The notes under the pieces are model-generated. The model was given only the letters and a program-made list of their open reading frames with translations, was not told where the DNA came from and ran no database searches. Shown piece by piece: positions 320 through 62,813 of a stretch of 64,000 nt of DNA. Both the position numbers and the translations under genes were made by a program. Source of the DNA: Elusimicrobiota bacterium (GTDB taxonomy: Bacteria > Elusimicrobiota > Elusimicrobia > 2-01-FULL-59-12); the NCBI GenBank assembly GCA_041660185.1, contig JBAZWU010000004.1, positions 96,878 to 160,877 on the forward strand, written 5' to 3'. Positions within the stretch are counted from its first letter, which is position 1. Each line of letters opens with the position of its first letter.

Positions 320-341
320 GAACATCACATACAGTCCGGCC

Positions 342-7252: not shown

Positions 7253-7260
7253 TTTTCTCC

Positions 7261-7331
7261 GTCATCCCCCGCGGGTTCTGGCGGGGGATCTATGCATCAA
7301 TGATGGATCCGCCAGACGTCTGGCGGATGAC
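7261..7331. repeat. MITE-like element, family 4 (GTCATCCCC...GGGGATGAC terminal inverted repeats with two internal hairpins)
   Basis: The terminal inverted repeats and internal hairpins are visible. Its end lies within 10 nt of the NlpC/P60 start codon and contains the GGAG Shine-Dalgarno. Confidence 0.75.
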
Positions 7332-7460
7332 GACTGTACGACTCTCTTATAGCATGAGTCTTGAGCGCCTGTCACTTTCCTCCAGCCCGTTGACAAGCCC
7401 CAGAAAGTCTGCTATATATATAATCAGCAATACAAACAATATATACCACTGACTATTAGA

Positions 7461-15217: not shown

Positions 15218-15241
15218 GTAGGGGCGCACCGCTGTGCGCCC
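15218..15241. repeat. REP family 1, single unit
   Basis: GTAGGGGCGCACCGCTGTGCGCCC lies immediately after the formyltransferase stop. Confidence 0.8.
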
Positions 15242-15909
15242 GCAGCTCTTGGTTTGCCCCGCGGTCTCTGGCGGCCCCGACCTCCCGTTGCCGTTTTGCT
15301 TGACGGGGCTGCACCGACTGTTTGACTCAACAGGTGGACGGTGCGGGGGGATCCATCAAGTGGTGCTCGGTGCGCCGCCCCGCACATCGCGCTCCAACCG
15401 GCCTGACAGCTCCGTCTTGTCCGCTCGAGCAGCCTGCGGAACTCAGCGCCAGAAGTCTGGCGCTTCAGACAGTCCTCGGCTGACCCGCTCTCGCTCCCAA
15501 GCCGCAGGCCTCACGTCGCGCTTCTGCGCAGGGCGGCCCCCTCGCAATAAAGATGATCCCTTTTGGGAACCACCGGCCGTTCTGTTGCGGGGGTCCGATT
15601 TTGACTTAACTGGTAGGTCGCCCTTACCGTTGGAGAACATACCGATTGTGACACGTTCGTACACCCTCCGAATGCCGAAGTATCATCACCGCCGATACGC
15701 CGCCGCCCTAACGGGCCGATAAACGGTGGTGTCGAACACCACACCAGCGGTGTGCTATCACCTGGATCCGCCATGATCTACGGAAAGACGATTTTACGTG
15801 AAATCACGTCGTTGATGGGCTCGCGTCGGAAATGGTGTAATCTTGACAGTTGTGTGTTGACCGGGAGGCGCTGGCGCGCTCTCGCGTAACCGTAGGAGGA
15901 TCAATAGCC

Positions 15910-25578: not shown

Positions 25579-25586
25579 ACGGGATC

Positions 25587-25669
25587 GTCATTCCCGGCGG
25601 TCTCTGGCCGGGAATCCACCGTGCCGTATAACGATGATGGGTCCCCCGCCAGTGGCCGCGGGGGATGAC
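25587..25669. repeat. MITE-like element, family 4
   Basis: GTCATTCCC...GGGGATGAC terminal inverted repeats with two internal hairpins, lying between recO and glyQ. Confidence 0.75.
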
Positions 25670-25704
25670 GACGGAGTGGCAAACGGAGAACTTCTTTAAT
25701 TTCA

Positions 25705-28652: not shown

Positions 28653-29460
28653 CGTTTGGCTTATCTTTTCCAACATCGTTTTGCCGATGGGCGCCGGCCT
28701 TACCTTTTTTGCGTTAGCCCGCTACGCGTCGCATGTCGCTCCGATGCGGTTTCTGGTGACGGGAGATACCACGTACCGTGGCGCGGCCTGGGGGTTCTTC
28801 TTTTTCGGAGTTTATTTGATCAGCCGTCCCCTGCAGGTTCTGCTGGGTCCTCTTCCGATGCCTTCCGTGGTTACCTGTATCCGGGAATTCTGCATGATGG
28901 GGATTTTCGCTCCCGCCATCTTTGTGGCGATGATGAGCCTCTGCTTCGGGAGCGAGAATATCCCGCGCAAACTGATCGTCTGGATCTTTGGAGTGGGACT
29001 GGTGCTGGGGTTCTCCTATGTGGTCCTCGAGCCGCAGGCGATTCGCGGCTCCGAGATCATCTTCTGGATCGGCAATTATCCGGCCTACGACGGGACCTGG
29101 TTTCTGAACGGGGACCCGCGCAGCCAGGCCCTGATTTCGATTATTTATGTGATCCAGTTCATTGATCCGGTTCTTCTGCTGTTCCTGGCCGGGGTCATTG
29201 TTTTCCGGCACGCCCGGCATTACCCGCCCGCGAAAAAGGTGGTGTATGACAACATGCCGAAAAAACTCTACCTGCTTTCCGCCGCGGTTTTTGCCTTTCC
29301 CATGGGCATGTTTATCGCCGGTGTTTTGGGCCTTTTCTTTCACATCCGTTTCCAATGGTGGCTCTACTATCTGGGTGCCCTGATCTCCGGGTTAATCGAA
29401 TCGGTGAGCCTCAGCCTTCCTCTGCGGAAAGATGTTCAAGTCAGCGAACACGCCCGATAA
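28645..29460 (+). CDS. hypothetical integral membrane protein
   Basis: About 8 hydrophobic segments. No recognisable motif. Confidence 0.6.
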   Translation: MHDVWLIFSNIVLPMGAGLTFFALARYASHVAPMRFLVTGDTTYRGAAWGFFFFGVYLISRPLQVLLGPLPMPSVVTCIREFCMMGIFAPAIFVAMMSLCFGSENIPRKLIVWIFGVGLVLGFSYVVLEPQAIRGSEIIFWIGNYPAYDGTWFLNGDPRSQALISIIYVIQFIDPVLLLFLAGVIVFRHARHYPPAKKVVYDNMPKKLYLLSAAVFAFPMGMFIAGVLGLFFHIRFQWWLYYLGALISGLIESVSLSLPLRKDVQVSEHAR

Positions 29461-29470
29461 CATCAGACAA

Positions 29471-29585
29471 ACCCTCACCCCAACCCTCTCCCTCAGCAGG
29501 GAGAGGGGGGATGATATTTTCTGACGCTCCCTCCCCCTGTTGAGGGGGAGAGCCGGCCTGCCGACCGGCAGGCAGGGGTGAGGGT
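29471..29585. repeat. MITE-like element, family 3, complete copy
   Basis: ACCCTCACCCC... / ...GGGGTGAGGGT terminal inverted repeats with internal hairpins. Confidence 0.75.
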
Positions 29586-31779: not shown

Positions 31780-32961
31780 ATGACGGATCACCTTTCCATC
31801 GTTTGTTCCCATTGCAAAAAGCCGCTGGCGGAGGAGGCCAATTTCTGCCACCTCTGCGGGGCGCCCACCGGCACCGCCAGCTGGCAGACCACGGACGGTC
31901 AAACCAACTTTGTTCAAGGGCTCCTGAATCTCGCCCGGGGCCTGACCTCGACGCTGGATGTCGATGCGCTCCTGAAACGGATCGGTCAATCCGCTGAACA
32001 CATGTTTTTGTGCGAAGCGTCTGCCCTCATGCTGCTGGATGAAGACAAGGGCCATCTTTACTTCAAAGTGGCGACCGGAGAAAAGGGCGGCGTGGTGACC
32101 CGTTTCCGCGTGAAAGTCGGGGAGGGAATCGCCGGATGGGTCGCCGAAAAACGGGAACCCGTCATGATTAACGACGTGAAATCCGATACGCGGTTCTCCG
32201 GGCAGTTCGACCAGGCATCCGGTTTTATCACCCGGTCGGTGCTCTGCGTTCCCATGCTCGCGGCCGGAGAGCTTGTCGGGGTTCTGGAAATCCTGAACAA
32301 GAAAGATCCCGCCGGTTTCTCCGAAGCGGACCGCAGCCTTTTGGAGAGTCTGGCCGGACTGGCGGCCCTGGCGATCGCCAACGCCAGGCTTCTAGGAGGG
32401 TTTCGTAATTTCTACAGCAACATGATCGAAATTCTGATCAGCGCCATTGAGGCGCGGGACGCCCGGATGGCGGGCCATTGCTGGCGGGTGGCCCAGCGGG
32501 CCAGCTCCCTCGGGCGGCGTCTGGGGCTGGAGGGGCAGGTCCTGAAAGATCTTTATTATTCGGCCCTGCTGCATGACATCGGGTTCTTAAAGGTTGCCGG
32601 CAGCTGGAATATGGCGCGCATCCTGGTCATGGAAAGCCCGCATATGGAGCAGACGCATCCCCTGATCGGCGCTGAAATGATTCGAGGGATCGATATCCTG
32701 AAAGGCGCCGCCGCCTTGATCCCTTTTCATCATGAATGTTATGACGGATCCGGTTCCCCGCGGGGGCTCCGGAACGACGATATCCCTTTAGGCGGTCACA
32801 TCCTGTCGGTCATTGAACACTGCGAAGAGATGCGCATGAACGGTTATTCCGTCGAGCAGGTCTTGGCGGCGCTGGAAGAGAAATCCGGGAAAGAATTCCA
32901 TCCGGAGGTGGCGCAAGCTTACCGGGACGTCCTGAGCGCCGAAGAAGCCAAGCCGATATAA
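31780..32961 (+). CDS. zinc-ribbon–GAF–HD-GYP signalling protein (likely c-di-GMP phosphodiesterase)
   Basis: N-terminal CSHCKK...CHLCG, a GAF domain, then the HD-GYP-like stretch HDIGF...HHECYDGSGSPRGL. Confidence 0.7.
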   Translation: MTDHLSIVCSHCKKPLAEEANFCHLCGAPTGTASWQTTDGQTNFVQGLLNLARGLTSTLDVDALLKRIGQSAEHMFLCEASALMLLDEDKGHLYFKVATGEKGGVVTRFRVKVGEGIAGWVAEKREPVMINDVKSDTRFSGQFDQASGFITRSVLCVPMLAAGELVGVLEILNKKDPAGFSEADRSLLESLAGLAALAIANARLLGGFRNFYSNMIEILISAIEARDARMAGHCWRVAQRASSLGRRLGLEGQVLKDLYYSALLHDIGFLKVAGSWNMARILVMESPHMEQTHPLIGAEMIRGIDILKGAAALIPFHHECYDGSGSPRGLRNDDIPLGGHILSVIEHCEEMRMNGYSVEQVLAALEEKSGKEFHPEVAQAYRDVLSAEEAKPI

Positions 32962-32976
32962 TTTTACCCTCACCCC

Positions 32977-33066
32977 AGCCCTCCCCCTCCGCAGGGGGAG
33001 GGAGCATCAGATTCTTTACAGCCATCATCCCCTCTCCCTGTTGAGGGAGAGGGTCAGGGTGAGGGT
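32977..33066. repeat. MITE-like element, family 3
   Basis: ACCCTCACCCCAGCCC / GGGTCAGGGTGAGGGT terminal inverted repeats. Confidence 0.75.
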
Positions 33067-33110: not shown

Positions 33111-33121
33111 TCCTTAATGTC

Positions 33122-33153
33122 GTCATCCCCCGCCAGAACCCGCGGGGGATGAC
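33122..33153. repeat. family 4 element, short single-hairpin form (GTCATCCCCCGCC...GCGGGGGATGAC)
   Basis: The same termini as the longer copies enclose one hairpin. Confidence 0.65.
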
Positions 33154-33178
33154 GAGAGGCAGTCGAAAGGAAGTCATC

Positions 33179-34105
33179 ATGCGTAAAAAAGTGGCTGTTG
33201 TGGGGGCCGGGAATGTCGGATCAACCGTCGCGGCCTGGTTGGCGGAGAAAGCGTTTTTTGATGTTGTTCTGCTGGATGTGGTTGAGGGAATGCCGCGCGG
33301 AAAGGCGTTGGATCTTCTCGAGATGGGCCCGGTCATCGGTTCCGATACGAAGATCATCGGGACCAATGACTATGGCCCGGCCGCGGGCTCCGATCTTTTT
33401 ATCGTCACCGCCGGCATCGCCCGCAAAGCGGGCATGAGCCGGGACACTTTGCTCAAGACGAACACAGACATTATCAAGACCGTGGCGGAACAGATAAAAA
33501 AGGTTTCCCCTGAAGCGTTCGTCATCGTGGTTTCCAATCCCCTGGACGTGATGTGCTACGTGATGAAGCAGGTGACCGGTTTTCCCCGCCAGCGGGTCAT
33601 CGGCATGGCTGGGGTGCTGGATTCGGCGCGCCTGTCCGCTTTTATCGCTCAGGAGCTTCACGTGTCGGTAAAAAACGTTTATGCCTGCGTCCTGGGCGGG
33701 CATGGCGATGCGATGGTGCCGCTGCCCCGCTATACCACGGTTTCCGGCATCCCGATTTCCGAACTACTCCCGAAGGAAAAGATCGATGCCCTTTTGAAGC
33801 GTACGCGGGAAGGTGGAGCGGAAATCATCTCTTTGCTCAAGACCAGCAGCGCGTTCTATGCTCCCAGCGCGTCCGCGGTTCAGATGGCGGAAGCCATTCT
33901 CTTCGACCGGCAGCATATTCTGCCTTCCTCGGTCTGGCTCCAGGGCGAGTATGGCCTTCAGGATGTCTATGTGGGGGTCCCCGCGAAACTGGGCGGTAAA
34001 GGCCTTGAGGAAATCATGCAACTCCATTTGACTCCTGAGGAACAGGCCGCCCTTTCCAAATCAGCCGAAACGGTGCGGACTCTCCAGAAAGCGACCGGTG
34101 TTTGA
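33179..34105 (+). CDS. mdh: malate dehydrogenase (LDH-like family)
   Basis: KVAVVGAGNVGST Rossmann motif and an LDH/MDH fold. AAGGAAG lies before the ATG at 33179. Confidence 0.8.
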   Translation: MRKKVAVVGAGNVGSTVAAWLAEKAFFDVVLLDVVEGMPRGKALDLLEMGPVIGSDTKIIGTNDYGPAAGSDLFIVTAGIARKAGMSRDTLLKTNTDIIKTVAEQIKKVSPEAFVIVVSNPLDVMCYVMKQVTGFPRQRVIGMAGVLDSARLSAFIAQELHVSVKNVYACVLGGHGDAMVPLPRYTTVSGIPISELLPKEKIDALLKRTREGGAEIISLLKTSSAFYAPSASAVQMAEAILFDRQHILPSSVWLQGEYGLQDVYVGVPAKLGGKGLEEIMQLHLTPEEQAALSKSAETVRTLQKATGV

Positions 34106-36011: not shown

Positions 36012-36021
36012 GATCACTGAC

Positions 36022-36160
36022 GTCATCCCCGAGTGACCCTGTCCCGTCACTTGTCGACGTTCTTGGTGGTCGGGACGGCCCCGACAATGTGACCTCACTA
36101 GAGGACGGGGCTGTCGGGGATCCATCCTTCGATTCCCCGCCAGAGACCGCGGGGAATGAC
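36022..36160. repeat. MITE-like element, family 4, long variant
   Basis: Starts 10 nt after the upstream stop codon. GTCATCCCC / GGGGAATGAC termini. Confidence 0.75.
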
Positions 36161-36284
36161 GATGTTTTTGTTAGGCCCCGGTTGCCAGACACTTGGCGAC
36201 CGGGGCTTTTACACCTTTTTACACTCAATCCTTTCCGTTGACATTTTCGCGATTCGGGGGTAAATAAAATCCGTTGCGAGGATT

Positions 36285-37994: not shown

Positions 37995-38073
37995 GTAGGG
38001 GCGGACCGCTGTCCGCCCGAATATTGGATTTCATGAGGGTCCTGAGGGCGGGCGCACATCGGTGCGCCCCGAC
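37995..38073. repeat. REP family 1 doublet with a compensated variant stem (GGGCGGAC...GTCCGCCC)
   Basis: Intercistronic, between the FecR-like gene and the beta-barrel gene. Confidence 0.8.
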
Positions 38074-38080
38074 ATTTCTC

Positions 38081-39259
38081 ATGATCATTTCATGTGCCTT
38101 CCCCGTTATGGCGGTTGAGGTGAAACCCGTCGTCAACGCCCAACTTCTGGGCGGCCAGTATTTCTACAACGGTTCAGACAATGCGTTTGGTGCGGTGGCA
38201 TCGCTTTCAGCGGCTCCTTATATGCAGTTTAACGATCGGTGGAGCCTGGTCCCGCTTTACAGCGGTTCCTATAAAGGGACCAAGCAAGTCACCGACCTGG
38301 TGGGCGGGGGAACCCTGTTCCAGGAATCACAGGACCATACCGGCTCGCTCAAAGCCATCCGGTCATTTGCCAATGGCCTCAAGCTCAAGGCGGTGGGCGC
38401 CTATGGCGCGGAATTCCTGCGAGAGACCGTCGACGAAAAGTGGGGGAAGGGTCTTTATGATAACCGCCGCCTTTCGGGTGGAGCAGAGAGCGAGTGGTCC
38501 TGGGATAAAGAACGGTATGTCCGGTTGGCCTATGACTATTACACGATTCGATTTCCAAACTACGCCAGCCTGGAATCCCAGGGATCGTCGATGGGATTAG
38601 GCCGGGAGCTCAATGCCCCCGACGTGCTGGACAATAAGAACCATGCGCTGACTCTTGGAGGCCAGGCCGGCCTTCCCGGCAATGGATTTGCGGAGGCGGC
38701 GTTCAGCCAGACCTGGCGCCGTTTCGGTTCCCAGCACCTCGTGGACCTCTCGGGCGATCTGATTTCCGAGCTTCGCGGCGATCAGATCCAGACCGCTTCT
38801 CTCCAGGGAACCTGGCCCGTTTTACTGGATTCCAATTTGAAACTCTTTACGAGCGTTGGCTACAGCCGGAGCCGTGTTTATTCGAATCAGAACCACTACG
38901 ATGCGCAAAAGGTGGTATTTAACCCCAATTACTATGCCTATATCCAGCAGTCGATCTCAAACCAATGGACCTTGGCGGTCGGCGAGGATCCTTGGACGAT
39001 CGGCTTGAACTGGACGGTGTCCCGTCAAAAATATGCGGACCGGTTGACCCAGGATGCGTTGGGAAATTATGAAACGGGTCGCACGCGTGTCGATGGGGCC
39101 AGTATCGGTTTGCAGTTTGCCTATCCGATTGCGGCGGGGTTCCGGCTAAACGCCTTGACTCAACTGGGGTGGAGCGACTCCAACAATCACAACAACCAGG
39201 TCTATCAGTACCACTACAACACCCAGACCTATTTGATGGGATTCAGCTATGCCTATTAA
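38081..39259 (+). CDS. outer-membrane beta-barrel protein
   Basis: Signal peptide MIISCAFPVMA, C-terminal GFSYAY aromatic terminus. The track start at 37979 translates the REP. Confidence 0.6.
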   Translation: MIISCAFPVMAVEVKPVVNAQLLGGQYFYNGSDNAFGAVASLSAAPYMQFNDRWSLVPLYSGSYKGTKQVTDLVGGGTLFQESQDHTGSLKAIRSFANGLKLKAVGAYGAEFLRETVDEKWGKGLYDNRRLSGGAESEWSWDKERYVRLAYDYYTIRFPNYASLESQGSSMGLGRELNAPDVLDNKNHALTLGGQAGLPGNGFAEAAFSQTWRRFGSQHLVDLSGDLISELRGDQIQTASLQGTWPVLLDSNLKLFTSVGYSRSRVYSNQNHYDAQKVVFNPNYYAYIQQSISNQWTLAVGEDPWTIGLNWTVSRQKYADRLTQDALGNYETGRTRVDGASIGLQFAYPIAAGFRLNALTQLGWSDSNNHNNQVYQYHYNTQTYLMGFSYAY

Positions 39260-48108: not shown

Positions 48109-48139
48109 TAGGGGCTAGGGGACGTAGTTGCCTTGTTGC
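48109..48139. repeat. REP family 2 arm (TAGGGGCTAGGGGACGTAGTTGCC), left flank of the transposase
   Basis: Inverted relative to the arm at 49182-49207. Confidence 0.75.
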
Positions 48140-48178
48140 TTTCCCAGCGAATAAATCCACCCTAAAGCTATCTAAGAA

Positions 48179-49189
48179 GTGATGCCTCGCCAGCCCCGAA
48201 TCGAATCCCCTGGCCTTCTCTGCCACGTCATCGTTCGCGGCATTGAACGCCGCTGCATATTTCCTGCGGCTAACGATTATGGTGATTTCGTTGCGCGTAT
48301 GGCTCGTCTCTTTGGTCAAACCCGGACACCTTGCTTCGCCTGGGCACTCATGCCTAACCATATACATTTGCTTCTCATGATGGGGCTAACCAAGATCTCC
48401 AAGGTCATGCAACGCCTTCTGACCGGGTATGCGGTCAATTTCAATATTCGCTATCAGCGCACCGGGCATCTCTTCCAAAACCGCTATAAATCCATTCTCT
48501 GCAAGGAGGAAACATATTTCTTGAGACTTGTCCGCTACATTCATTTGAACCCCGTTCGGGCCGGACTTGTTAGGACTCCTCAAGACTTAGCTTCTTACCC
48601 TTGGACCGGACACGCCGCTGTTCTGGAAACCCAAAGGAATTCTTGGCAGGATGTGAATGGGGTTTTGGGGCGATTTGGTTCAAACAGAGCCACTGCCATA
48701 GCTGGCTATGAACGGTTCGTCTTGGAAGGGTGGGAGGAACCTCACCGGGATGAACTGGAAGGCGGTGGACTCCTTCGGAGCCTGGGTGGTGTGGGGGGTG
48801 CCTTAGCAGCGGCTCGGGATAACAACCGACAGATGTCAGACGTTCGCGTTTTAGGTGACGGTGACTTTGTCGAAGAAGTACTTCGGCAAGCCGATATCAG
48901 GGATCAAGCGAATAACGGATTCAAGGCCGTTTCGTTGGAGATGCTAATGCAAAAGATCGCAAAAGAGTTCAAAATCGATGCGCGGACGATTCAACTAAAG
49001 CGTCGGGAACGGAAAATTTCCAAGGCAAAGTCCATACTTATATTTGCAGCCGTGGAATGGCTTGGAAAACCATTGAAAGAAATAGCTGCTTTGACAAAAA
49101 TGTCAGCAGGTTGTGCCAGCCGGGCCATGCGCCGCGGTCAGGTGCTGGCGGAACAACTCAGCTTGGCAGCTGGATTCAAAAGGCAATAA
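48179..49189 (+). CDS. REP-associated tyrosine transposase (RAYT; IS200/IS605-like Y1 HUH) fused to a DnaA-C-like HTH domain
   Basis: HUH motif MPNHIHLL, a catalytic-Tyr region (QNRYKS) and the family N-terminus (LCHVIVRG...). The C-terminal KSILIFAAVEWLGKPLKEIAALTKMS resembles DnaA domain IV. The stop codon lies inside the right REP. Confidence 0.8.
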   Translation: MMPRQPRIESPGLLCHVIVRGIERRCIFPAANDYGDFVARMARLFGQTRTPCFAWALMPNHIHLLLMMGLTKISKVMQRLLTGYAVNFNIRYQRTGHLFQNRYKSILCKEETYFLRLVRYIHLNPVRAGLVRTPQDLASYPWTGHAAVLETQRNSWQDVNGVLGRFGSNRATAIAGYERFVLEGWEEPHRDELEGGGLLRSLGGVGGALAAARDNNRQMSDVRVLGDGDFVEEVLRQADIRDQANNGFKAVSLEMLMQKIAKEFKIDARTIQLKRRERKISKAKSILIFAAVEWLGKPLKEIAALTKMSAGCASRAMRRGQVLAEQLSLAAGFKRQ

Positions 49190-49207
49190 GGCAACTACGT
49201 CCCCTAC
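49182..49207. repeat. REP family 2 arm (GGCAATAAGGCAACTACGTCCCCTAC), right flank of the transposase
   Basis: Reverse complement of the left-arm consensus. Confidence 0.75.
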
Positions 49208-49345
49208 GCCCTTCGTTCAAGTTGAGCCCTTCTCCCCAGAAGAAACGCATCTTAAATTCAGCACGATTCAATCATTTTTGTTCAAAATGGCGCCGAGGCG
49301 GTTTTTCCTTGAAAACTTCTCTTTGCGGGGGTAAGGGAGAACACA

Positions 49346-56249: not shown

Positions 56250-56339
56250 GGGACGTAGAAAGCATAGGGGACGTAGTTGCCTTATTGCCTTTTGTCGCCA
56301 ATAAGGTAAATAAGGCAATAAGGCAACTACGTCCCCTAT
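56246..56339. repeat. REP family 2, complete inverted pair (ATAGGGGACGTAG...CTACGTCCCCTAT) with a left-arm duplication
   Basis: Lies between the kinase stop and the stop of the minus-strand ATPase gene. Confidence 0.8.
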
Positions 56340-56343
56340 GACC

Positions 56344-57495
56344 TTAATTCAGAAGCTTGTTACTCCAGAGCTGTTCCATGAACACCTGCCAGGGCAGGAC
56401 CTCCACGGAACCGATGCGGCGAGGGGCGGGATCCCTGGAAACGACAATCTGGCGCTGAACAGAGTATTCTTCGGCGAAAGCTTTCAAGCCTCGCCAGTGA
56501 CGCTCATCCGCCAATTCCGTTGATTTAACTTCTACGGCGATTTGGGCGTCTCCAAGAATAAAATCGACTTCATACCCGGACGTGGTCCGCCAATACGACA
56601 GCGGATAACGCAAACCGGAATAGTGCGCATGCGCCCGGAGTTCCATCGCCATCCAATGTTCAAAAGCTTTGCCGAAGGCTTCGCTCCTTGGCTCGATGGT
56701 CCCACGACGCAACAGCGTATTGGCCAGTCCGACGTCGAAAAAGTAGAACTTGGAAGCCTGAACGGTACGGCGTTTGGGTCGTTTGAGATAGGCGGGTAAT
56801 TCCCAGCCGATCAGCGTGTCGTTCAAAATGTCGAAGTAGCTTCTGACCGTCGGAGCTGACACGCCGCAGTCGCGCGCCACATTGCTGTACTGGAGCGCCT
56901 CTCCACAGCTGAAGGCCGCGGCGTCCAGAAATCGCGAGAAGGCCGGCAGATTGCGCGTCAACGCCTCGGCCATGACTTCTTCTTTTAGATAGTCGCCGAC
57001 ATAAGCGTGCCAGCGCAAGCCCGCATCGTCCGCCAGATAATGCCGCGGCAGGAGCCCCTGATTCAGGGCCCGTTCAAGATTAAAATCAGGGATCTCCGGA
57101 TAAACCAGCGGGAACAGTTCGTAGCGGATCGCTCGCCCGCCCAACAGATTGGCGGCGCCGTGTTTCAGCTTTCGTGCGCTTGAACCGCAGAGGATGAACC
57201 GGATCCGCTCGTTGACAATAAGCCATTGCACTTCATCGAGAAGAGTTGGGAGCTTCTGTACTTCATCAATGATAACGATCCGCTCCCGACGCCGTGGATC
57301 AGCGAGTATATTCTCGCGAAGACTGGCGGGACGTCGGCTGAAATGCTCGAATTGATCAGACAATAGGAGGTCAACATAATTGGCATCCGGCAGAAGTCCG
57401 CGCAACAGAGTGCTTTTTCCTGTTTGGCGAGGGCCCCACAAGAAGCACGAATCGTTCGATATTTCAGGCAGATTTTGTATTCTTTTAAAATTCAT
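56344..57495 (-). CDS. AAA+ ATPase with a DUF4143-type C-terminal domain
   Basis: Walker A GPRQTGKST, Walker B VIIDEVQ, a restriction-endonuclease-like C-terminal region. Confidence 0.75.
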   Translation of the reverse strand: MNFKRIQNLPEISNDSCFLWGPRQTGKSTLLRGLLPDANYVDLLLSDQFEHFSRRPASLRENILADPRRRERIVIIDEVQKLPTLLDEVQWLIVNERIRFILCGSSARKLKHGAANLLGGRAIRYELFPLVYPEIPDFNLERALNQGLLPRHYLADDAGLRWHAYVGDYLKEEVMAEALTRNLPAFSRFLDAAAFSCGEALQYSNVARDCGVSAPTVRSYFDILNDTLIGWELPAYLKRPKRRTVQASKFYFFDVGLANTLLRRGTIEPRSEAFGKAFEHWMAMELRAHAHYSGLRYPLSYWRTTSGYEVDFILGDAQIAVEVKSTELADERHWRGLKAFAEEYSVQRQIVVSRDPAPRRIGSVEVLPWQVFMEQLWSNKLLN

Positions 57496-57584: not shown

Positions 57585-59645
57585 ATGCCGCGGGAGCCGA
57601 TGTTTGATGCCCATTTTGAGAAGTTCCTTGACTTAATTGATCAGGAACGGAAAGCCGAACAGGCTGAAAACGAGCGCAAGCTGGATTTGCTGCCGGTTCA
57701 GGCGCGTGAGGCGCTGGGCAAGGCCATCACCCGCCTGGTGGTGGTCCGCGAAGACTTCGGCGTCGGAGGGCATCCCTTATGGGTCCTCTCCCGCCCTTCC
57801 GCCGGAGAAGAATACTCCCCGTTCCAGGCGCTGAACCAAGGCGACCTGGTCAATCTCACCTTTGCAGAGAATCCCGAAAACCGGATCAAAGGCACGCTCT
57901 ACGATGTGGATCAATTCGAAGTCACCGTGGCGCTGAACGGCCCGATGCTGGATGAAGCGCCCAAGGGAAAATGTCAGCTCGATATCCTGGGAAGTGAAGC
58001 GACGTACAAGCGGATGAAGAAGGCGCTGAACACGGTGATGAGCGCCGACAAACCGTCTGTGGAACATCTCCGTGATGTTTTAATGGGAAAAGAGAAACCT
58101 TCCTATCAGGGATACGAAAGTATTTTCCCGTCATCCCCGAGTGTCTCTGTCGGGGATCCATCATGCCGTCTGACAGCCTGTCTGGATTCCCCGCCAGTGA
58201 CCGCGGGGAATGACGCAAGAGAAACGACCACAAGAGACGATGGAGGTGCTCCTCGCAATGACATCTCTTTCTTTAACCTCCGCCTGAATCCTTACCAGCG
58301 GGAAGCCGTTGAAAAAGCGCTGGCCGCGCAGGATGTCGCGGTGGTGCATGGCCCCCCCGGCACGGGAAAGACGACCGTCCTCGTGGAGATCGTCCAGCAG
58401 GCGGTGGCCCGCGGCGCGCGTGTGCTGGCTTCGGCCCCGAGCAATATCGCGGTGGATAACCTGCTGGAGAAGCTGCTGGACACCGGCTTACGGGTGGTCC
58501 GGATGGGACATCCGGCGCGCATTCTGGATTCTCTGCGGCATGCCACGCTCTCGGCTCTGGTGACCGAACATGATGATCAGCGCCACATTCAGGAATTGGA
58601 CCAGCAGCGCGAGCGCCTGATCCGCCAGCTCCACCGCGGCCGCGGCATGGAATGGGCGGAGCGAAAGCAGATCCAGCGCGAGATCCAGGCGCTCTGGCAG
58701 GAGGCGCGAGACATCGAGTTCGGCATCGGCAAACAGATCCTGGCGCAGGCGGATGTCGTCCTGGCCACGCACGGCGGCATCGCCAAGCCGATCCTCAAAA
58801 AACCGTTCGATCTCCTGATCATGGATGAAGCGTCCCAGGCCACCGAACCCCTCTCGTGGATTCCCATTCTCCAGGCGAAGAAAGTCATCATCGCCGGCGA
58901 TCCGCTGCAGCTGCCTCCGACGATCTATTCCGAAGAGACCAAAAAACAGGGCCTGGGCGTGACCCTTATGGAGCGCCTCCAGAAAATCCTTCCGCCGGAG
59001 GGGCAGACGCTCTTGCGCATCCAGTACCGGATGCATGAAACCATCATGGGTTTTTCCTCCCGGCAGTTCTATGACGGGAAGCTGGAGGCCGACGACTCGG
59101 TGCGGCGGCACACCGCCTCCGAGATGCCGGATGTGACGACCAACGCGCTGACGCAGAACCCCCTGATGTTCGTGGACACCGCGGGCGCCGGCTACGAAGA
59201 GTCCTGGAATGAACTGCTCGAGAGCCGTGAAAACGAGGGCGAAGCGAAACTCGCGCTCTATTTGTATCAGCAGCTGCGCGAAAGCGGGATCGTAGCCCGG
59301 GCCATGGCGCTGCTCACGCCGTATGTGGCGCAGGCGCGTTTGTTGCGGAACCTCGTCGGCCCTGACCGTTCGATCGAGATCGGCAGCATCGACGGCTTCC
59401 AGGGGCGCGAAAAGGAAGTAGTGATCCTGTCGCTGGTCCGGAGCAACCACCGCGGGGAAGTCGGTTTTCTCGGCGACACGCGGCGCATGAACGTGGGCAT
59501 GACGCGCGCCCGGCGCCTGCTGATCGTCCTAGGGGACTCCACGACCCTGGCCCGGCACCCGTTTTATAACCAGTTCATCGAATACGCCGATGCCCACGAG
59601 GCCCATCATTCCGCCTGGGAATGGATAAACGAAGCGCGGTTTTGA
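57585..59645 (+). CDS. superfamily 1 (Upf1/DNA2/IGHMBP2-like) helicase carrying an in-frame family 4 MITE insertion
   Basis: Motifs LNPYQREAV, GPPGTGKT, DEASQ, GDPLQLPP, QYRMHETI, GFQGREK. Residues SPSVSVGDPSCRLTACLDSPPVTAGND are the translation of the repeat. Confidence 0.8.
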   Translation: MPREPMFDAHFEKFLDLIDQERKAEQAENERKLDLLPVQAREALGKAITRLVVVREDFGVGGHPLWVLSRPSAGEEYSPFQALNQGDLVNLTFAENPENRIKGTLYDVDQFEVTVALNGPMLDEAPKGKCQLDILGSEATYKRMKKALNTVMSADKPSVEHLRDVLMGKEKPSYQGYESIFPSSPSVSVGDPSCRLTACLDSPPVTAGNDARETTTRDDGGAPRNDISFFNLRLNPYQREAVEKALAAQDVAVVHGPPGTGKTTVLVEIVQQAVARGARVLASAPSNIAVDNLLEKLLDTGLRVVRMGHPARILDSLRHATLSALVTEHDDQRHIQELDQQRERLIRQLHRGRGMEWAERKQIQREIQALWQEARDIEFGIGKQILAQADVVLATHGGIAKPILKKPFDLLIMDEASQATEPLSWIPILQAKKVIIAGDPLQLPPTIYSEETKKQGLGVTLMERLQKILPPEGQTLLRIQYRMHETIMGFSSRQFYDGKLEADDSVRRHTASEMPDVTTNALTQNPLMFVDTAGAGYEESWNELLESRENEGEAKLALYLYQQLRESGIVARAMALLTPYVAQARLLRNLVGPDRSIEIGSIDGFQGREKEVVILSLVRSNHRGEVGFLGDTRRMNVGMTRARRLLIVLGDSTTLARHPFYNQFIEYADAHEAHHSAWEWINEARF
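58130..58214. repeat. MITE-like element, family 4, located inside the helicase ORF
   Basis: GTCATCCCC...GGGGAATGAC with the same internal hairpins as the intergenic copies. Only the gene frame is free of stop codons. Confidence 0.8.
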
Positions 59646-59758
59646 TAGGATAGCAACGCTCAAATGCCCTTCGACTTCGCTCAGGGCTATGGTGAGTGGA
59701 GCCCTTCGACAGGCTCAGGGTGCTGAGCGAAAGTCGAAGCACAAAGCGGAATCGAACC

Positions 59759-61099
59759 ATGCCGAAAACATTCATCCTCGACACGAACGTCCTCATCCAC
59801 GATCCGGAAGCTCTATTTACATTTGAAGGCAGTACCGTTGTTATCCCGCTCACGGTTGTTGAAGAGCTGGACGGTTTAAAGCGGGGACACGATACCCGCA
59901 GCCGGAACGCCCGCTCAGTGTCCCGTTACTTGAACGATCTCCGCCAGCACGGCAAGCTGTCCGAAGGAGTTCCGCTCGAACATGGAGGGCGTCTGCGGGT
60001 CGAAGTGGCCGCGCACGCCGCTCTTCCTCCGCTTTTTGCTGATCACTCAAAGGACAACTCCATTTTGGGAACCGCGCTGGCCCTGTCGCAAAAGGGCGAA
60101 AGCGTTGTTTTCATCACCAAGGACATCAACCTGCGCATCAAGGCCGAAGCCATCGGCCTGACCGCCGAAGATTACGAAAAAGAAAAAGTCTCTCCGGACC
60201 AGCTCTACTCCGGGTGGCGGGACCTGCTGGTCCCCTCGTCTCAGATCGATCAATTTTTCAAAACCAAACGCCTGGACCCGCCTCCCTTGAAGCCGGTGCC
60301 GGGATCACCGGACGGCACCGTGGTGAAGTGGATGCCCAATGAAATGGCGATTTTGCACAGCCAGGAGGGGGATTCGCAAAGCGCTTTGGTCCGATACGAC
60401 GCCAAGACCCAGAAAATGCTTCCACTGCTTCATGCCAATGCCAAGCCGTGGGGGCTCAAGCCCCAGAACACCGAGCAGAAGTTCGCGCTGGAGCTTCTCC
60501 TGGATCCCAAGGTGGAGCTGGTATCCCTCGTGGGGGTCCCCGGAGCCGGCAAAACGCTTCTAGCCCTGGCCGCGGCTCTGGAGCAGATCCTGACGGAAAA
60601 AACCTACCGCCGGCTGCTCGTGGCGCGGCCGGTGATCGCGGTCGGGCAGGATATCGGTTTTCTCCCCGGCACGAAAGAAGATAAGCTGGAAAGCTGGATG
60701 GGGGCCATCTACGACAACCTGAATTTCCTCATGGACAATCCCGACAACCCGGGGACGGCTGACGAGGAAGAAGGATCGTTGTTTGAATCCGGCAAGATTG
60801 TGGTGGAAGCGGTAACGTTTATGCGGGGCCGCAGCCTGCCGAACCAGTTCATCATCATCGACGATGCCCAGAACCTGACGCCCCACGAAATGAAGACGGT
60901 CATCTCCCGCGTCGGCCAGGGATCCAAGATCGTGGTGACCGGAGATCCCTATCAGATCGACAATCCCTACCTGGATTCGGCGTCCACGGGGCTGGCGAAC
61001 CTGGTTGAAAAATTCAAAGGCCAGCTCGTTTACGGCCACATGACCTTCTCGAAGATTGAGCGCAGCACGCTGGCGGCGCTGGCCTCCGATTTGTTGTAG
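59759..61099 (+). CDS. PIN-domain–PhoH-like ATPase (YlaK/PhoH2-type)
   Basis: N-terminal PIN (ILDTNVLIHD...), Walker A GVPGAGKTLLA, a PhoH C-terminal region. The stop codon TAG is the GTAG of the downstream REP. Confidence 0.8.
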   Translation: MPKTFILDTNVLIHDPEALFTFEGSTVVIPLTVVEELDGLKRGHDTRSRNARSVSRYLNDLRQHGKLSEGVPLEHGGRLRVEVAAHAALPPLFADHSKDNSILGTALALSQKGESVVFITKDINLRIKAEAIGLTAEDYEKEKVSPDQLYSGWRDLLVPSSQIDQFFKTKRLDPPPLKPVPGSPDGTVVKWMPNEMAILHSQEGDSQSALVRYDAKTQKMLPLLHANAKPWGLKPQNTEQKFALELLLDPKVELVSLVGVPGAGKTLLALAAALEQILTEKTYRRLLVARPVIAVGQDIGFLPGTKEDKLESWMGAIYDNLNFLMDNPDNPGTADEEEGSLFESGKIVVEAVTFMRGRSLPNQFIIIDDAQNLTPHEMKTVISRVGQGSKIVVTGDPYQIDNPYLDSASTGLANLVEKFKGQLVYGHMTFSKIERSTLAALASDLL

Positions 61100-61211
61100 G
61101 GGCGCACCGCTGTGCGCCCGCCCATCCAATTCAGTGTGAATACCCTAACATCATTCTGCTCCGATGTTTTCATCTAACGTCTTGATCGGGCGCACAGCGG
61201 TGCGCCCCTAC
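61096..61211. repeat. REP family 1 doublet (68-bp spacer)
   Basis: GTAGGGGCGCACCGCTGTGCGCCC ... GGGCGCACAGCGGTGCGCCCCTAC. Confidence 0.85.
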
Positions 61212-62663
61212 ATTCTCACGTTGATCGTCCTGGGAATCGGCACCTTCCTCCGCTTCCATGCCCTGGACCGTCAAAGCCTCTGGGACGATGAGATGTCCAC
61301 GCTCCAGACGATCTCAACCCCTCGGAGTGAGTTGATTCATCGTTTCCAGACCTACGAAATCCACCCGCCGCTGTATTTCTTTCAGATGAAGCTCTGGCAA
61401 AAAGCCGGGGCACGCTCGCTGGTCAATTTCCGCGCCAACTCGGCTTGCTGGGGCACGCTGTCCCTGCTTTTGATCTTCCTTCTGGGGCGCCGTTACGGCG
61501 GGCCCTGGGCCGGTTTGTGGGCGAGCGCCTATGCGGCTTTTTCACCCTATCACTTGTCCTACAGCCAGGAAATCCGTCCGTATGCGTTGGCCATCGTGAT
61601 CGCGTTGGCTGCGCTGTTAGTCTTGGAACAAGTGGTTATAGGGGACGTAGTTGCCTTTTTGCCTTATTGGCGAAAAAAAACAATAAGGCAAAAAGGCAAC
61701 TACGTCCCCTATGTTCCCTATGTTTCTTTATGGGTGATCCTTACGATCCTCTGGACCGCCCAGTTTTTCACGCATTACTGGGGCGCCTTTGTAGTATCCG
61801 CGCAAGCCCTCTATGCCTGGACGCGGCTGCTGGAGCGCCCGGCACGGATGCGGCTCCTCCGATCCGTGCTGATCGCGGGGGGATTGTTCTGCCTCTGGCT
61901 ACCGATTCTGTTGGCCCAGATGGAGGTTGTTCCAGCGCTGTCTTTCTGGGTGCCTCGCTTTTCATTCGCCAGTCTTTTGCAAACGTTCGGGGCGTTCAGC
62001 GGAATCTACTTTAATATGGCCTCCAGCACGTTTTACCTGCCCACGGTTACCGGCATTTTTGCTCTGCTGGCGCTGGCGCACGGCTTGGCGCTCGTGCACG
62101 GGCTTCGCCGCGGTCCCTCCGCGTTACGGTACTGGCTGTGTGTCGGACTGGCGATTCCCTGCCTGATCAGTCTCTGGAAACCAGCCATTTTTCTCTGGTA
62201 CCGCTACACGTTCCATCTGTACCCGGCTTTTTGCCTCCTGTTGGTTCTGGGGGCCTTGCGATGGCGGCCGCGCGCTCTGGGGATTCTGCTGCTCGCCACC
62301 TGCCTGGGGACGCAACTCTGGGGAAGCGCGATCTATTTTACCCGGTGGCAGAAGGCCAACCCGAAAGCGGTTGTTTCCTATATCCACTGGCTCCGGCAGC
62401 CGGAATCGATCGTGGTCCGGCCTTTTTACTTTGCCAGGCTTTTTCAGTTTTATGACCAGGGGACCCTTCCGGTCATCGACCAGCACCTGCTGGACAGCGT
62501 GGAGAAGCGCGCGGCGCTGAAGGGGAAGAAGATCATCCTGGTCGCTTTTAATGTCCCGTATGACCCGGTGACGGACGCCCTGCTCAGTGAATTTAAGGTG
62601 GTCTCCGCGCAAAATTTCCCGGGCCTGGCGCGTCTGGGGATCACCGTCTATCAGCTGGAATAG
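61164..62663 (+). CDS. GT39/GT83-like (ArnT/PMT-type) membrane glycosyltransferase-family protein carrying an in-frame REP family 2 insertion
   Basis: Multi-TM protein with an N-terminal DDE-type loop (RQSLWDDEMSTLQ). The track start at 61164 translates the REP1, so the true start is probably near 61216. The repeat element sits at 61638-61712. Confidence 0.6.
   Translation: MFSSNVLIGRTAVRPYILTLIVLGIGTFLRFHALDRQSLWDDEMSTLQTISTPRSELIHRFQTYEIHPPLYFFQMKLWQKAGARSLVNFRANSACWGTLSLLLIFLLGRRYGGPWAGLWASAYAAFSPYHLSYSQEIRPYALAIVIALAALLVLEQVVIGDVVAFLPYWRKKTIRQKGNYVPYVPYVSLWVILTILWTAQFFTHYWGAFVVSAQALYAWTRLLERPARMRLLRSVLIAGGLFCLWLPILLAQMEVVPALSFWVPRFSFASLLQTFGAFSGIYFNMASSTFYLPTVTGIFALLALAHGLALVHGLRRGPSALRYWLCVGLAIPCLISLWKPAIFLWYRYTFHLYPAFCLLLVLGALRWRPRALGILLLATCLGTQLWGSAIYFTRWQKANPKAVVSYIHWLRQPESIVVRPFYFARLFQFYDQGTLPVIDQHLLDSVEKRAALKGKKIILVAFNVPYDPVTDALLSEFKVVSAQNFPGLARLGITVYQLE
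61638..61712. repeat. REP family 2 complete inverted pair inside the GT39-like ORF (75 bp)
   Basis: ATAGGGGACGTAGTTGCCTTTTTGCC...GGCAACTACGTCCCCTAT. It is translated as VIGDVVAFLPYWRKKTIRQKGNYVPYV. Confidence 0.8.
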
Positions 62664-62708
62664 CGGGCCTGATCGACGCCGGAAGCGGGTATAATTAGTT
62701 TACAGCCC

Positions 62709-62804
62709 GTCATCCCCGGTCGTCACCCCCGAATGTCTCTGTCGGGGGTCTAAGCAGCCGTTACGTCAGGAGTAGATTCCCCGCCAACGACCGCGGGGAA
62801 TGAC
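62709..62804. repeat. MITE-like element, family 4
   Basis: Its right terminus GGGGAATGACAGAGG supplies the Shine-Dalgarno 5 nt before the ATG of the next gene. Confidence 0.75.
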
Positions 62805-62813
62805 AGAGGAAAA

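What the first reader, a model, noticed from the sequence alone, without database searches (positions are those of the whole stretch)
58130..58214. Family 4 MITE-like palindromic element embedded in-frame in a Upf1-like SF1 helicase
The same element that occurs intergenically at 7261, 25587, 33122, 36022 and 62709 sits between the N-terminal domain and motif Q/I of the helicase. It is translated as SPSVSVGDPSCRLTACLDSPPVTAGND. Of the three forward frames only the gene's frame is free of stops. The helicase motifs I-VI downstream are all intact. This is the second intragenic, frame-preserving repeat in the same 64 kb. That points to a systematic phenomenon, for example insertions surviving only when in-frame in linkers.
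Basis: seen in the sequence. Interest (0 to 1): 0.7.

Follow-up and report, generated by a model that had tools for sequence, protein, structure and literature searches.

The report
Mobile hairpin repeat translated inside helicase
An 87-base mobile palindromic repeat, related to the hairpin repeats that a small single-strand DNA nuclease recognises in Neisseria, has landed in frame in a floppy linker of a helicase gene of an uncultured Elusimicrobiota bacterium, and in this bacterial group about 30% of such repeats sit inside working genes in the same way.

Summary
Window 58129-58215 is an 87-nt copy of a repeat with five intergenic copies in the window. It lies in frame in a 686-aa IGHMBP2/Upf1-like helicase and encodes residues 183-210.

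It is an insertion. In about 97 of 119 orthologues this linker is 20-22 aa, and the closest one (P0002) has an empty site. AlphaFold2 places the insert in a disordered loop between the 1B/stalk module and domain 1A.

The element is a doublet of two inverted hairpins with YGTCAT...ATGACR ends and no target duplication. Each arm resembles the Neisseria NTS (Ssn-related motif).
- In a related metagenome contig the same arms are perfect inverted repeats around a 97-aa GIY-YIG nuclease gene.
- Homologues of that gene in two Elusimicrobia MAGs are flanked by canonical NTS.

The phenomenon is systematic.
- 41 of 137 assessable copies (30%) lie in frame inside long ORFs. Nine of nine tested hosts are conserved genes such as MutS, PriA and DnaX.
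- The same helicase linker received repeats many times independently: 17 parsimony changes involving two main repeat families.

Verdict: a new variant of a known kind. It behaves like the Rickettsia palindromic elements and looks Ssn/NTS-linked. The insert is most likely a tolerated passenger.

The parts
58129..58215 (+). 87-nt doublet element (family 4). It is translated in frame as part of helicase residues 182-211; the core peptide is SSPSVSVGDPSCRLTACLDSPPVTAGND.
   Evidence: It folds as one long hairpin: DNA -25 kcal/mol (z=-5.0), RNA -47.5 kcal/mol (z=-5.1).
58129..58159 (+). Left arm: CGTCAT + hairpin CCCCGA/TCGGGG + ATCC.
   Evidence: The same arm type is present in many related copies.
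58182..58215 (-). Right arm. Read on the minus strand it is CGTCATTCCCCGCGGTCACTGGCGGGGAATCCAG, which resembles the NTS/SRM hairpin.
   Evidence: it matches the published SRM pattern once one extra loop base is allowed. It closely resembles the inverted repeats that flank the GIY-YIG gene in L085, with the same termini and stem and differences only in the loop.
58216..58248 (+). 33 nt encoding ARETTTRDDGG. These residues are also absent from the closest orthologue. Origin unexplained.
57585..59645 (+). Host gene: an IGHMBP2/SMUBP-2-like SF1B helicase of 686 aa. Domain layout: 1B barrel 13-119, AAA_11 234-450, AAA_12 458-652.
7260..7332 (.). Intergenic family copy. Its second arm is degenerate. 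It ends 8 nt before the start codon of the minus-strand ORF 6284-7252.
25586..25670 (.). Intergenic family copy (doublet). The stem variant is TCCCGGC/GCCGGGA.
33121..33154 (.). Intergenic solo hairpin of the family. A mechanically listed ORF (33149-34105) overlaps its last few bases; the likely start of that gene, read from the sequence, lies further downstream.
36021..36161 (.). Intergenic family copy. Extra sequence is nested inside the loop of its left arm.
62708..62805 (.). Intergenic family copy with a duplicated left terminus. It ends 9 nt before ATG 62814.

Best explanation
The segment is a non-autonomous mobile repeat. It consists of two inverted NTS-like hairpins (YGTCAT-stem-loop-stem-ATCC) joined head to head.

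The family is abundant in a clade of environmental Elusimicrobiota. Its arms are the terminal inverted repeats of a unit that carries a single-domain GIY-YIG (Ssn-like) nuclease gene.

Shown:
- One copy entered the normally 20-aa disordered linker between the 1B/stalk module and RecA-like domain 1A of an IGHMBP2-like helicase.
- The copy is 87 nt, which is 29 codons.
- The frame it landed in is the only stop-free forward frame.

Inferred:
- The gene stayed open, and the extra roughly 29-40 residues are carried as a tolerated surface loop. In other words the insert is a passenger that survived purifying selection and not a functional module.
- Spread works through the hairpin formed in single-stranded DNA, which is recognised and cut by an Ssn-type GIY-YIG nuclease, or less likely by a Y1 transposase.
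- The repeated hits in this linker reflect permissiveness of the site more than targeting.
For: Insertion, not native sequence:
- About 97 of 119 orthologues have a 20-22-aa linker, and the sister P0002 is empty.

Tolerated loop:
- pLDDT is 31-37 over residues 177-224, while the flanking domains are confident.
- IGHMBP2 4B3F aligns on both sides, with 6 residues in place of 52.

Repeat family:
- Six copies in the window.
- 41 stretches in GTDB genomes, 40 of them from Elusimicrobiota MAGs, and 36 from a single MAG.
- At least 120 stretches in metagenome contigs.

Hairpin under selection:
- Stems vary with both sides changing together: CCCCGA/TCGGGG, CCCCGGC/GCCGGGG, CCCCTGC/GCAGGGG, CCTCGGC/GCCGAGG.

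Link to the Ssn/NTS system:
- The published NTS is CGTCATTCCCGCGMAVGCGGGAATCYRG, with an NTS-ssnA-NTS gene architecture (PMC11893778).
- L085 carries a 97-aa GIY-YIG ORF (PF01541, E=1e-14) between perfect inverted family-4 arms.
- Homologues of that ORF, 73-77% identical, in Elusimicrobia MAG loci L172 and L173 are flanked by NTS-type hairpins: canonical NTS (at most 1 mismatch) around the L172 gene; a GCCCGC-stem variant around the L173 gene, with canonical NTS about 0.8-1 kb upstream.
- L085 shares genes at 70-75% amino-acid identity with an Elusimicrobiota MAG locus.

Selection on frame:
- Only the gene's forward frame is open.
- Element length mod 3 (classes 0/1/2) is 11/21/1 for intragenic copies against 23/27/20 for intergenic copies, p=0.006.

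Systematic:
- 41 of 137 copies are in frame within ORFs, and 9 of 9 hosts tested are conserved genes.
Against: - No GIY-YIG gene is present in the 64-kb window, so the partner enzyme of this genome has not been seen.
- The strict published SRM pattern gives 0 hits. The arms have one loop base too many.
- Membership of the L085 protein in cd10448, and its homology to Neisseria SsnA, could not be tested directly.
- Ssn has been shown to be a nuclease, not a transposase.
- No empty site at nucleotide resolution was obtained. P0015 and P0018 are only about 85% identical in DNA, and the linker does not align.
- Two length classes mod 3 occur among in-frame copies, so the exact boundaries of the inserted DNA are not settled.
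- The 33 nt after the element are unexplained.
- There is no expression or protein evidence.
Confidence: 0.8

Rival explanations
1. The element is a REPIN in the strict sense, copied by a RAYT (REP-associated Y1 tyrosine transposase) and not linked to a GIY-YIG nuclease.
For: - It is an inverted doublet that folds into one long hairpin.
- It has no target-site duplication.
- The window encodes a Y1_Tnp + DnaA_C protein at 48179-49186.
Against: - That Y1 gene is flanked by a different repeat, TAGGGGACGTAGTTGCC.
- The family-4 arms start with CGTCAT, not the GTAG of classical REPs (the GTAG rule is from my own knowledge).
- The only gene found between inverted family-4 arms is a GIY-YIG gene.
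- No other Y1 gene turned up in about 1 Mb of fetched loci.
Confidence: 0.12
2. The intragenic copies are kept because they do something. They could be Ssn target sites that modulate recombination or transformation of the genes that carry them, as NTS does in Neisseria. Alternatively they could act as linker extensions or mRNA hairpins that tune helicase expression.
For: - NTS hairpins modulate the integration of transforming ssDNA.
- The intragenic copy has both hairpins intact.
- P0015 and P0018 are 93% identical in protein, but they diverge sharply just around the insertion.
- The RNA hairpin is strong, -47.5 kcal/mol.
Against: - The inserts differ in family, position, length and peptide among orthologues, and most orthologues have none.
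- The peptide is predicted to be disordered.
- Copies are still depleted in genes relative to what I assume is a typical coding density of about 85-90% (30%).
Confidence: 0.1
3. The recurrent hits in this linker come from target preference of the insertion machinery (local DNA structure or sequence), not from tolerance of the protein.
For: - 17 state changes are inferred in one 20-aa linker among 119 orthologues.
- There are four family-4 insertions on separate branches (P0001, P0012, P0014, P0018) plus a further family-4 insert in metagenome locus L110 that was not placed on the tree and resembles P0018's.
- A conserved pyrimidine lies 5' and a purine 3' of every copy.
Against: - Two main, apparently unrelated repeat families, family 4 and the CCCTCTCCC..GGGAGAGGG family, both use the site.
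- The linker sequence itself is not conserved.
- No flank motif is seen beyond positions -3 to +2.
Confidence: 0.15
4. The segment is native helicase sequence or an assembly chimera, not an insertion.
For: The exact protein is known from a single contig only, and it is not on record in the contig index.
Against: - Both flanks are collinear with the orthologues over the full length.
- Five intergenic copies of the element lie in the same window.
- The same kind of in-frame insert is seen in many independent assemblies.
Confidence: 0.02

Closest known systems
Rickettsia palindromic elements (RPEs): protein-coding palindromes (Ogata et al. 2000 and 2002, as summarised in PMC10969869)
   Same: - Short palindromic repeats are inserted in frame in many unrelated conserved genes.
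- The inserts are absent from orthologues.
- They sit where the fold tolerates them.
- A large fraction of copies is intragenic.
   Different: - Different sequence family and size: 63-115 nt here against about 150 bp for RPEs as first reported.
- The hosts are environmental Elusimicrobiota, not obligate intracellular alpha-proteobacteria.
- The arms are NTS-like and flank a GIY-YIG gene.
- Sequence homology to RPEs was not tested.
Neisseria NTS/dRS3 and Ssn-related motifs (SRM), with the GIY-YIG ssDNA nuclease Ssn (PMC11893778)
   Same: - 5' CGTCAT, then a G+C-rich hairpin, then ATC(C) after the palindrome.
- A roughly 95-aa single-domain GIY-YIG gene is flanked by inverted copies (L085, L172).
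- Canonical NTS sequences are present in Elusimicrobia MAG loci L172 and L173.
   Different: - The arms are joined as inverted doublets.
- The stem and loop are longer, so the strict SRM pattern fails by one loop base.
- 30% of copies are intragenic, against 2% reported for N. meningitidis.
- No ssn gene lies in this window, and no enzymology exists for this lineage.
REPINs and RAYTs (PMC3116915, PMC3337134)
   Same: - Two inverted hairpin repeats form one long hairpin.
- No target duplication.
- Most copies are extragenic.
- A single-copy enzyme gene is flanked by the repeats.
   Different: - The flanked gene is GIY-YIG, not a Y1 transposase.
- There is no 5' GTAG.
- The RAYT-like gene in the window belongs to a different repeat family.
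Bacterial MITEs such as Correia and ERIC (review PMC10969869)
   Same: - Terminal inverted repeats, small size, non-autonomous.
- Occasional in-frame fusions with ORFs.
   Different: - No target-site duplication.
- No DDE-transposase parent element was seen.
Human IGHMBP2/SMUBP-2 helicase, PDB 4B3F (the host protein)
   Same: - Same domain order: stalk/1B barrel, then 1A, then 2A.
- E=7e-115 over residues 226-683, plus a match to 1B.
   Different: - The linker is 52 residues instead of 6, because of the repeat.
- The bacterial protein lacks the R3H and zinc-finger tail (from my own knowledge, not tested here).

Membership tests
NTS / Ssn-related motif (SRM) repeats | A hairpin repeat with a conserved 5' (C)GTCAT flank and a C immediately 3' of the palindrome (ATC). 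| tested here: met
   Both arms of the window element and 127 related arms have YGTCAY-stem-loop-stem-A(T/C)C. The motif comes from PMC11893778.
NTS / Ssn-related motif (SRM) repeats | Matches the published degenerate pattern HGTCWYN(0-2)YYVSBRHN(0-5)WNVSBRGN(0-2)RNCYNB. | tested here: not met
   0 hits in the window against 0.4-0.5 expected. Allowing a loop of up to 6 bases gives 5 family arms plus 1 other hit against 0.87 expected.
NTS / Ssn-related motif (SRM) repeats | A single-domain GIY-YIG gene of about 94 aa flanked on both sides by the repeat (NTS-ssn-NTS). | tested here: inconclusive
   Met in the related contig L085, where perfect inverted family-4 arms lie at 8184-8215 and 8655-8690 around the ORF at 8314-8604. 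Also met in L172 with canonical NTS and in L173 with a GCCCGC-stem variant. No GIY-YIG gene lies in the 64-kb window itself.
NTS / Ssn-related motif (SRM) repeats | The nuclease belongs to CDD family cd10448 and is a homologue of N. meningitidis SsnA. | not testable with these tools
   Only Pfam PF01541 could be scored. No SsnA chain is in the PDB. There is indirect support: homologues at 73-77% identity are flanked by canonical NTS.
NTS / Ssn-related motif (SRM) repeats | The hairpin is bound and cut only as single-stranded DNA. | not testable with these tools
   This needs enzymology.
Rickettsia-type protein-coding palindromic elements | A repeat inserted in frame in unrelated conserved genes and absent from their orthologues. 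| tested here: met
   Helicase. Other hosts include MutS, PriA, DnaX, a CCA-adding-type enzyme, SQS_PSY, cyclophilin, a PD-(D/E)XK nuclease and a methyltransferase. 41 of 137 copies are intragenic.
Rickettsia-type protein-coding palindromic elements | The insert lies where the fold tolerates it (surface or loop). | tested here: met
   AlphaFold2 gives pLDDT below 50 for 177-224, between confident domains. The position corresponds to a gap in the alignment to 4B3F. This is a prediction only.
Rickettsia-type protein-coding palindromic elements | Sequence homology to the RPE families. | not tested
   No RPE sequences were compared.
REPIN/RAYT | Two inverted REPs forming one long hairpin. | tested here: met
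   (z about -5).
REPIN/RAYT | A Y1 (RAYT) gene flanked by the same repeat. | tested here: not met
   The Y1_Tnp ORF at 48179-49186 is flanked by a different repeat. No other Y1 gene was found in the fetched loci.
MITE (derivative of a DDE insertion sequence) | Terminal inverted repeats plus a target-site duplication. | tested here: not met
   Terminal inverted repeats are present. Direct repeats of 2-4 nt at the flanks occur in 0-1 of 127 copies.
Upf1-like SF1B helicase, IGHMBP2 subgroup (host gene) | A 1B barrel plus AAA_11/AAA_12 core with intact motifs. | tested here: met
   Pfam: SMUBP-2_HCS1_1B, AAA_11 and AAA_12. 4B3F matches with E=7e-115. The invariant GPPGTGKT and DEASQ motifs are present.

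The most novel reading that the evidence does not exclude
Ssn/NTS-type hairpin repeats, so far described as almost exclusively extragenic, may be a general source of protein-coding palindromes.

In one clade of free-living Elusimicrobiota about 30% of copies are translated inside housekeeping proteins. A single helicase linker has been colonised again and again by this family and by a second repeat family.

That pattern would mean one of two things. Either insertion is guided to particular ssDNA-exposed sites, or such inserts are retained because Ssn cutting at intragenic hairpins shapes recombination and gene mosaicism. It might also unify the Rickettsia RPE phenomenon with the Ssn system.
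Probability: 0.25. Interest if true: 0.8.

Novelty: new variant of a known kind. Interest (0 to 1): 0.6.

Why it matters
In-frame palindromic repeats in genes are best known from Rickettsia, where their high frequency has been regarded as unusual. This finding shows the same behaviour at comparable frequency in an unrelated, environmental phylum.

It also ties the repeat to the recently described Ssn/NTS system, whose repeats were reported to avoid genes. That gives a concrete candidate enzyme to test.

The helicase linker offers a natural experiment on which protein sites tolerate insertions: many independent hits in one linker.

There is a practical warning for annotation as well. Odd low-complexity segments such as SSPAVSGGGS...GMT or PSP..GEG in proteins predicted from MAGs are translated repeats.

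Tried and rejected
- Rfam at gathering threshold over the whole window gave no family.
- tblastn with E. coli RayT and YhbQ sequences recalled from memory, used only as leads. RayT gave one weak hit, which Pfam then confirmed as Y1_Tnp but which belongs to another repeat family. YhbQ gave nothing real; the L041 hit is an aminotransferase.
- The strict SRM pattern gave 0 hits.
- A search for a target-site duplication found none.
- An empty site at nucleotide resolution was sought by aligning P0015 (no insert) with P0018 (insert). The DNA is only about 85% identical and the linker does not align.
- Source-contig look-up for the window's own protein: not on record.
- A PDB search for an SsnA structure returned only the UPF0213 protein 1ZG2 at E=0.02.
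- The supplementary tables of the Ssn paper are not held, and Ogata 2002 is not held.
- I considered whether the 33 nt after the element are a decayed second arm. The resemblance is limited to GATGGA...AATGAC, and the AATGAC aligns with native orthologue sequence, so no claim is made.
- A first automatic delimitation of doublets, which required the two arms to be alike, was too strict and was replaced.
Full report
**1. The observation**

Window 58129-58215 reads CGTCAT-CCCCGAGTGTCTCTGTCGGGG-ATCC-ATCATGCCGTCTGACAGCCTGTCT-GGATT-CCCCGCCAGTGACCGCGGGG-AATGACG. It lies in ORF 57585..59645 (+, 686 aa) and encodes SSPSVSVGDPSCRLTACLDSPPVTAGND, residues 183-210.

With at most one mismatch, the terminus CGTCATCCCC occurs only at these six places. 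The five other copies fall between the long ORFs.

Of the three forward frames of the 87-nt element, only the gene's frame is free of stops. As single-stranded DNA or RNA the element folds into one long hairpin, with z about -5 against shuffles. Rfam has no family for it.

**2. The host gene**

Pfam finds the SMUBP-2/HCS1 1B domain (13-119), AAA_11 (234-450) and AAA_12 (458-652). The best solved relative is human IGHMBP2 (4B3F), E=7e-115. It aligns in two blocks, query 10-173 and query 226-683. Six human residues stand where this protein has 52.

An AlphaFold2 model built on 34 orthologues has mean pLDDT 80.6. Its only long low-confidence stretch is 177-224 (pLDDT 31-37). This stretch lies between the stalk helix 157-166 and the first helix of domain 1A at 236-247.

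**3. It is an insertion**

The exact protein comes from an Elusimicrobiota MAG.

- Among 119 orthologues, the stretch from R163 to N231 is 20-22 residues in about 97 and 67 here.
- The nearest relative, P0002 (about 80% identical), reads LRDVLMGEAKPSYGAPAGPVAIDGLAFFN against ...KPSYQGYESIFP[element]ARETTTRDDGGAPRNDISFFN here.
- The refuting condition, the same segment in unrelated homologues, is not met.
- About 11 residues after the element are also extra, and I cannot explain them.

**4. The linker is a recurrent sink**

About 20 orthologues carry other inserts at this spot. DNA fetched for several of them shows palindromic repeats of two kinds.

- Family-4-like doublets: L002/P0014 (CGTCAC-CCTGG..CCAGGG...CCTGGC..GCCAGG-ATGACG) and L049/P0018 (ACGTCATTCCCCGCAGCCACTGGCGGGGAATCCATGGATCCCCTGCCAGCGACCGCAGGGGATGACG). 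P0012 also belongs here; its peptide VIPAKAGIQ is what a canonical NTS hairpin encodes.
- A second family of the CCCTCTCCC..GGGAGAGGG type, seen in L004, L047, L048 and L050. It also occurs intergenically in the window at 7974-8071, 29457-29553 and 32952-33054.
- A further helicase orthologue with a family-4 insert turned up in the metagenome scan: L110...LREVFMGTVPISSSPAVAGRGSMDSPPEAAGNDDVVWFN....

On a neighbour-joining tree built without the linker columns, the root state is 'no insert' and Fitch parsimony needs 17 changes. The four family-4 carriers each sit next to insert-free sisters. These are independent events, not one old insertion.

**5. The phenomenon is systematic**

A scan of one genome per GTDB species with the arm pattern CCCCGCCANNNNCCGCGGGGRATGAC found 41 stretches. 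Forty are from Elusimicrobiota MAGs, 36 from a single MAG (JBGPLV01), and one is from a Fimbriimonadales MAG.

I counted copies at least 300 nt from a contig end and asked for a stop-free frame running at least 80 codons beyond each side.

| Source | In-frame copies | Copies assessed |
|---|---|---|
| Window | 1 | 6 |
| Genome loci | 15 | 41 |
| Metagenome loci | 25 | 90 |
| Total | 41 (30%) | 137 |

- The encoded peptides are stereotyped: SSSPAVSGGGSM...GMT in one orientation and ...SMDSPPxxAGND in the other.
- All nine host ORFs submitted to Pfam are conserved genes, most with domain matches on both sides of the insert. They are MutS, squalene/phytoene synthase, PolyA_pol/CCA-type nucleotidyltransferase, PriA, Methyltransf_28, a PD-(D/E)XK nuclease protein with two copies, a double cyclophilin, DnaX and a pyridine-nucleotide oxidoreductase.
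- Some inserts lie within the span of a single Pfam domain match, so 'linkers only' is too narrow.
- Element length (GTCA..TGAC) mod 3, classes 0/1/2, is 11/21/1 for intragenic copies against 23/27/20 for intergenic ones, chi-square p=0.006. This fits selection for frame. The presence of two classes shows that the exact inserted bases are not yet defined.
- There is no target-site duplication. The base before the element is always a pyrimidine, and the base after it is almost always a purine.

**6. What the element is**

A literature search on the motif led to the description of the Ssn nucleases (PMC11893778). According to that paper:

- The Neisseria NTS is CGTCATTCCCGCGMAVGCGGGAATCYRG.
- It forms a hairpin in ssDNA and is bound and cut by SsnA, a 94-aa single-domain GIY-YIG protein.
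- The ssnA gene sits between NTS copies.
- Binding depends most on the C just after the palindrome, and cutting depends on the three bases before it.

The window's right arm, read on the minus strand, is CGTCATTCCCCGCGGTCACTGGCGGGGAATCCAG. It has the same flanks as the NTS and a longer stem-loop. The strict published SRM pattern gives no hit in the window. With one more loop base allowed it picks up five family arms and one other site, against 0.87 expected.

Three loci connect the family to a GIY-YIG gene:

- **L085 (metagenome contig).** A 97-aa ORF (PF01541, E=1e-14) lies between perfect inverted copies of the family-4 arm: CGTCATTCCCCGCGGTAGCTGGCGGGGAATCC at 8184-8215 and its complement at 8655-8690. 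L085 shares genes at 70-75% amino-acid identity with an Elusimicrobiota MAG locus.
- **L172 and L173 (Elusimicrobia MAGs).** Homologues of the L085 protein, 73-77% identical, occur here. The L172 gene is flanked by canonical NTS with at most one mismatch. The L173 gene is flanked by a GCCCGC-stem variant, and L173 has canonical NTS about 0.8-1 kb upstream.
- **Stem variation.** Across 118 distinct arms the stem sequence changes while both sides stay complementary. There is a caveat: a 5-bp complement was part of how the arms were picked, although 127 of the anchors examined passed that filter.

I therefore read family 4 as an Elusimicrobiota variant of the NTS/SRM repeats, arranged as REPIN-like inverted doublets that look like the two ends of a GIY-YIG-carrying unit with the gene removed.

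The window itself has no GIY-YIG gene. It does have a Y1 transposase-like ORF (48179-49186; Y1_Tnp + DnaA_C), but that one is flanked by a different repeat.

**7. How it most likely works**

Shown:
- The repeat is a family member.
- It is an insertion.
- It is in frame and in the only open forward frame.
- It sits in a predicted disordered linker.
- The helicase core is intact.
- Such in-frame copies are common in this lineage.

Inferred:
- Copies spread through a single-stranded hairpin intermediate handled by an Ssn-type nuclease. Ssn is proven only as a nuclease, and the paper itself merely raises the mobile-element analogy.
- Insertions that break a frame or a fold are removed by selection, which leaves copies in tolerant sites.
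- The helicase insert is a passenger loop.

Rivals:
- RAYT-driven REPIN. There is no matching Y1 gene.
- A retained function in recombination or expression. This is possible, but the inserts are heterogeneous and mostly absent from orthologues.
- Target preference as the cause of the hot spot. It is weakened by two main, apparently unrelated families using a non-conserved linker.
- Artefact or native sequence. This is contradicted.

**8. Comparison and novelty**

The behaviour matches the Rickettsia palindromic elements (summarised in PMC10969869). The sequence and gene association match the Ssn/NTS system. The doublet form matches REPINs.

In the searchable literature I found nothing that links GIY-YIG/Ssn repeats to in-frame insertions, and nothing that describes such repeats in Elusimicrobiota. 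This is a new variant of a known kind, not a new category.

**9. Limits**

- One assembly only for this gene.
- No expression data.
- The partner enzyme is not seen in this genome.
- cd10448 membership is untested.
- The insertion boundaries and the extra 33 nt are unresolved.

Noticed in passing
window 48179-49189 (+), with 48116-48155 and 49180-49219: A 336-aa ORF with Pfam Y1_Tnp (IS200-like) plus a DnaA C-terminal helix-turn-helix. It is flanked by inverted copies of TAGGGGACGTAGTTGCCTT, so this is a RAYT-like gene with its own repeat family, distinct from family 4.
   Followed up: partly
window 61639-61724, inside ORF 61164-62663 (+): A doublet of the RAYT-associated repeat (TAGGGGACGTAGTTGCC...GGCAACTACGTCCCCTA) lies in frame in a 499-aa membrane-protein-like ORF, encoding IGDVVAFLPYWRKKTIRQKGNYVPYVPYV. 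Another doublet of this family lies at 56265-56351 (its position relative to ORFs was not checked).
   Followed up: partly
window 7974-8071, 29457-29553, 32952-33054; loci L004, L047, L048, L050: A third repeat family (CCCTCACCCC..CCCTCCCCC..GGGGGAGGG, nested palindromes). When translated it gives PSP..GEG peptides. About 13 helicase orthologues carry PSP/GEG-type inserts in the same linker; four of them were confirmed at DNA level to be this kind of repeat.
   Followed up: partly
window 219-335, 15218-15257, 37995-38085, 61096-61135: A fourth family, GTAGGGGCGCACCGCTGTGCGCCC. It has the 5' GTAG typical of classical REP sequences. The copy at 61096 overlaps the last bases of ORF 59696-61099.
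   Followed up: no
window 58216-58248: 33 nt (ARETTTRDDGG) directly after the element are also absent from the closest orthologue. They match nothing else that I looked at.
   Followed up: partly
window 36021-36161: This family-4 copy has about 70 nt of further palindromic sequence nested inside the loop of its left arm.
   Followed up: no
window 7260-7332, 33121-33154, 62708-62805: Intergenic copies end a few bases before ribosome-binding sites or start codons: ...ATGACGGAGAAAAATG for the minus-strand gene 6284-7252, and ...AATGACAGAGGAAAAATG for 62814. They may therefore shape 5' UTR structure or be co-transcribed within operons.
   Followed up: no
L171 (P0015) versus L049 (P0018): Two helicase orthologues are 93% identical in protein, and almost identical over the last 430 residues. 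They diverge sharply in the roughly 30 residues around the insertion site, flanks included. This recalls the raised diversity reported next to dRS3/NTS repeats in Neisseria.
   Followed up: partly
L006, L033, L023, L043, L110 and other loci: Many hosts of in-frame copies are DNA-metabolism proteins: MutS, PriA, DnaX, a PD-(D/E)XK nuclease protein with two copies, and the helicase several times. I did not test whether this exceeds what long multi-domain proteins would give by chance.
   Followed up: no
L030 1828-1853 (Fimbriimonadales MAG): The only hit of the arm pattern outside Elusimicrobiota in the genome collection. It is also an in-frame doublet, in a 1215-aa ORF. It could reflect transfer or mis-binning.
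   Followed up: no
proteins P0121-P0240: The roughly 96-aa GIY-YIG protein is 67-86% identical across Elusimicrobia, Gallionellaceae-type Betaproteobacteria, Gammaproteobacteria and Syntrophorhabdus. It is often found on very short contigs. This suggests recent horizontal spread and breakage of assemblies at repeats.
   Followed up: no
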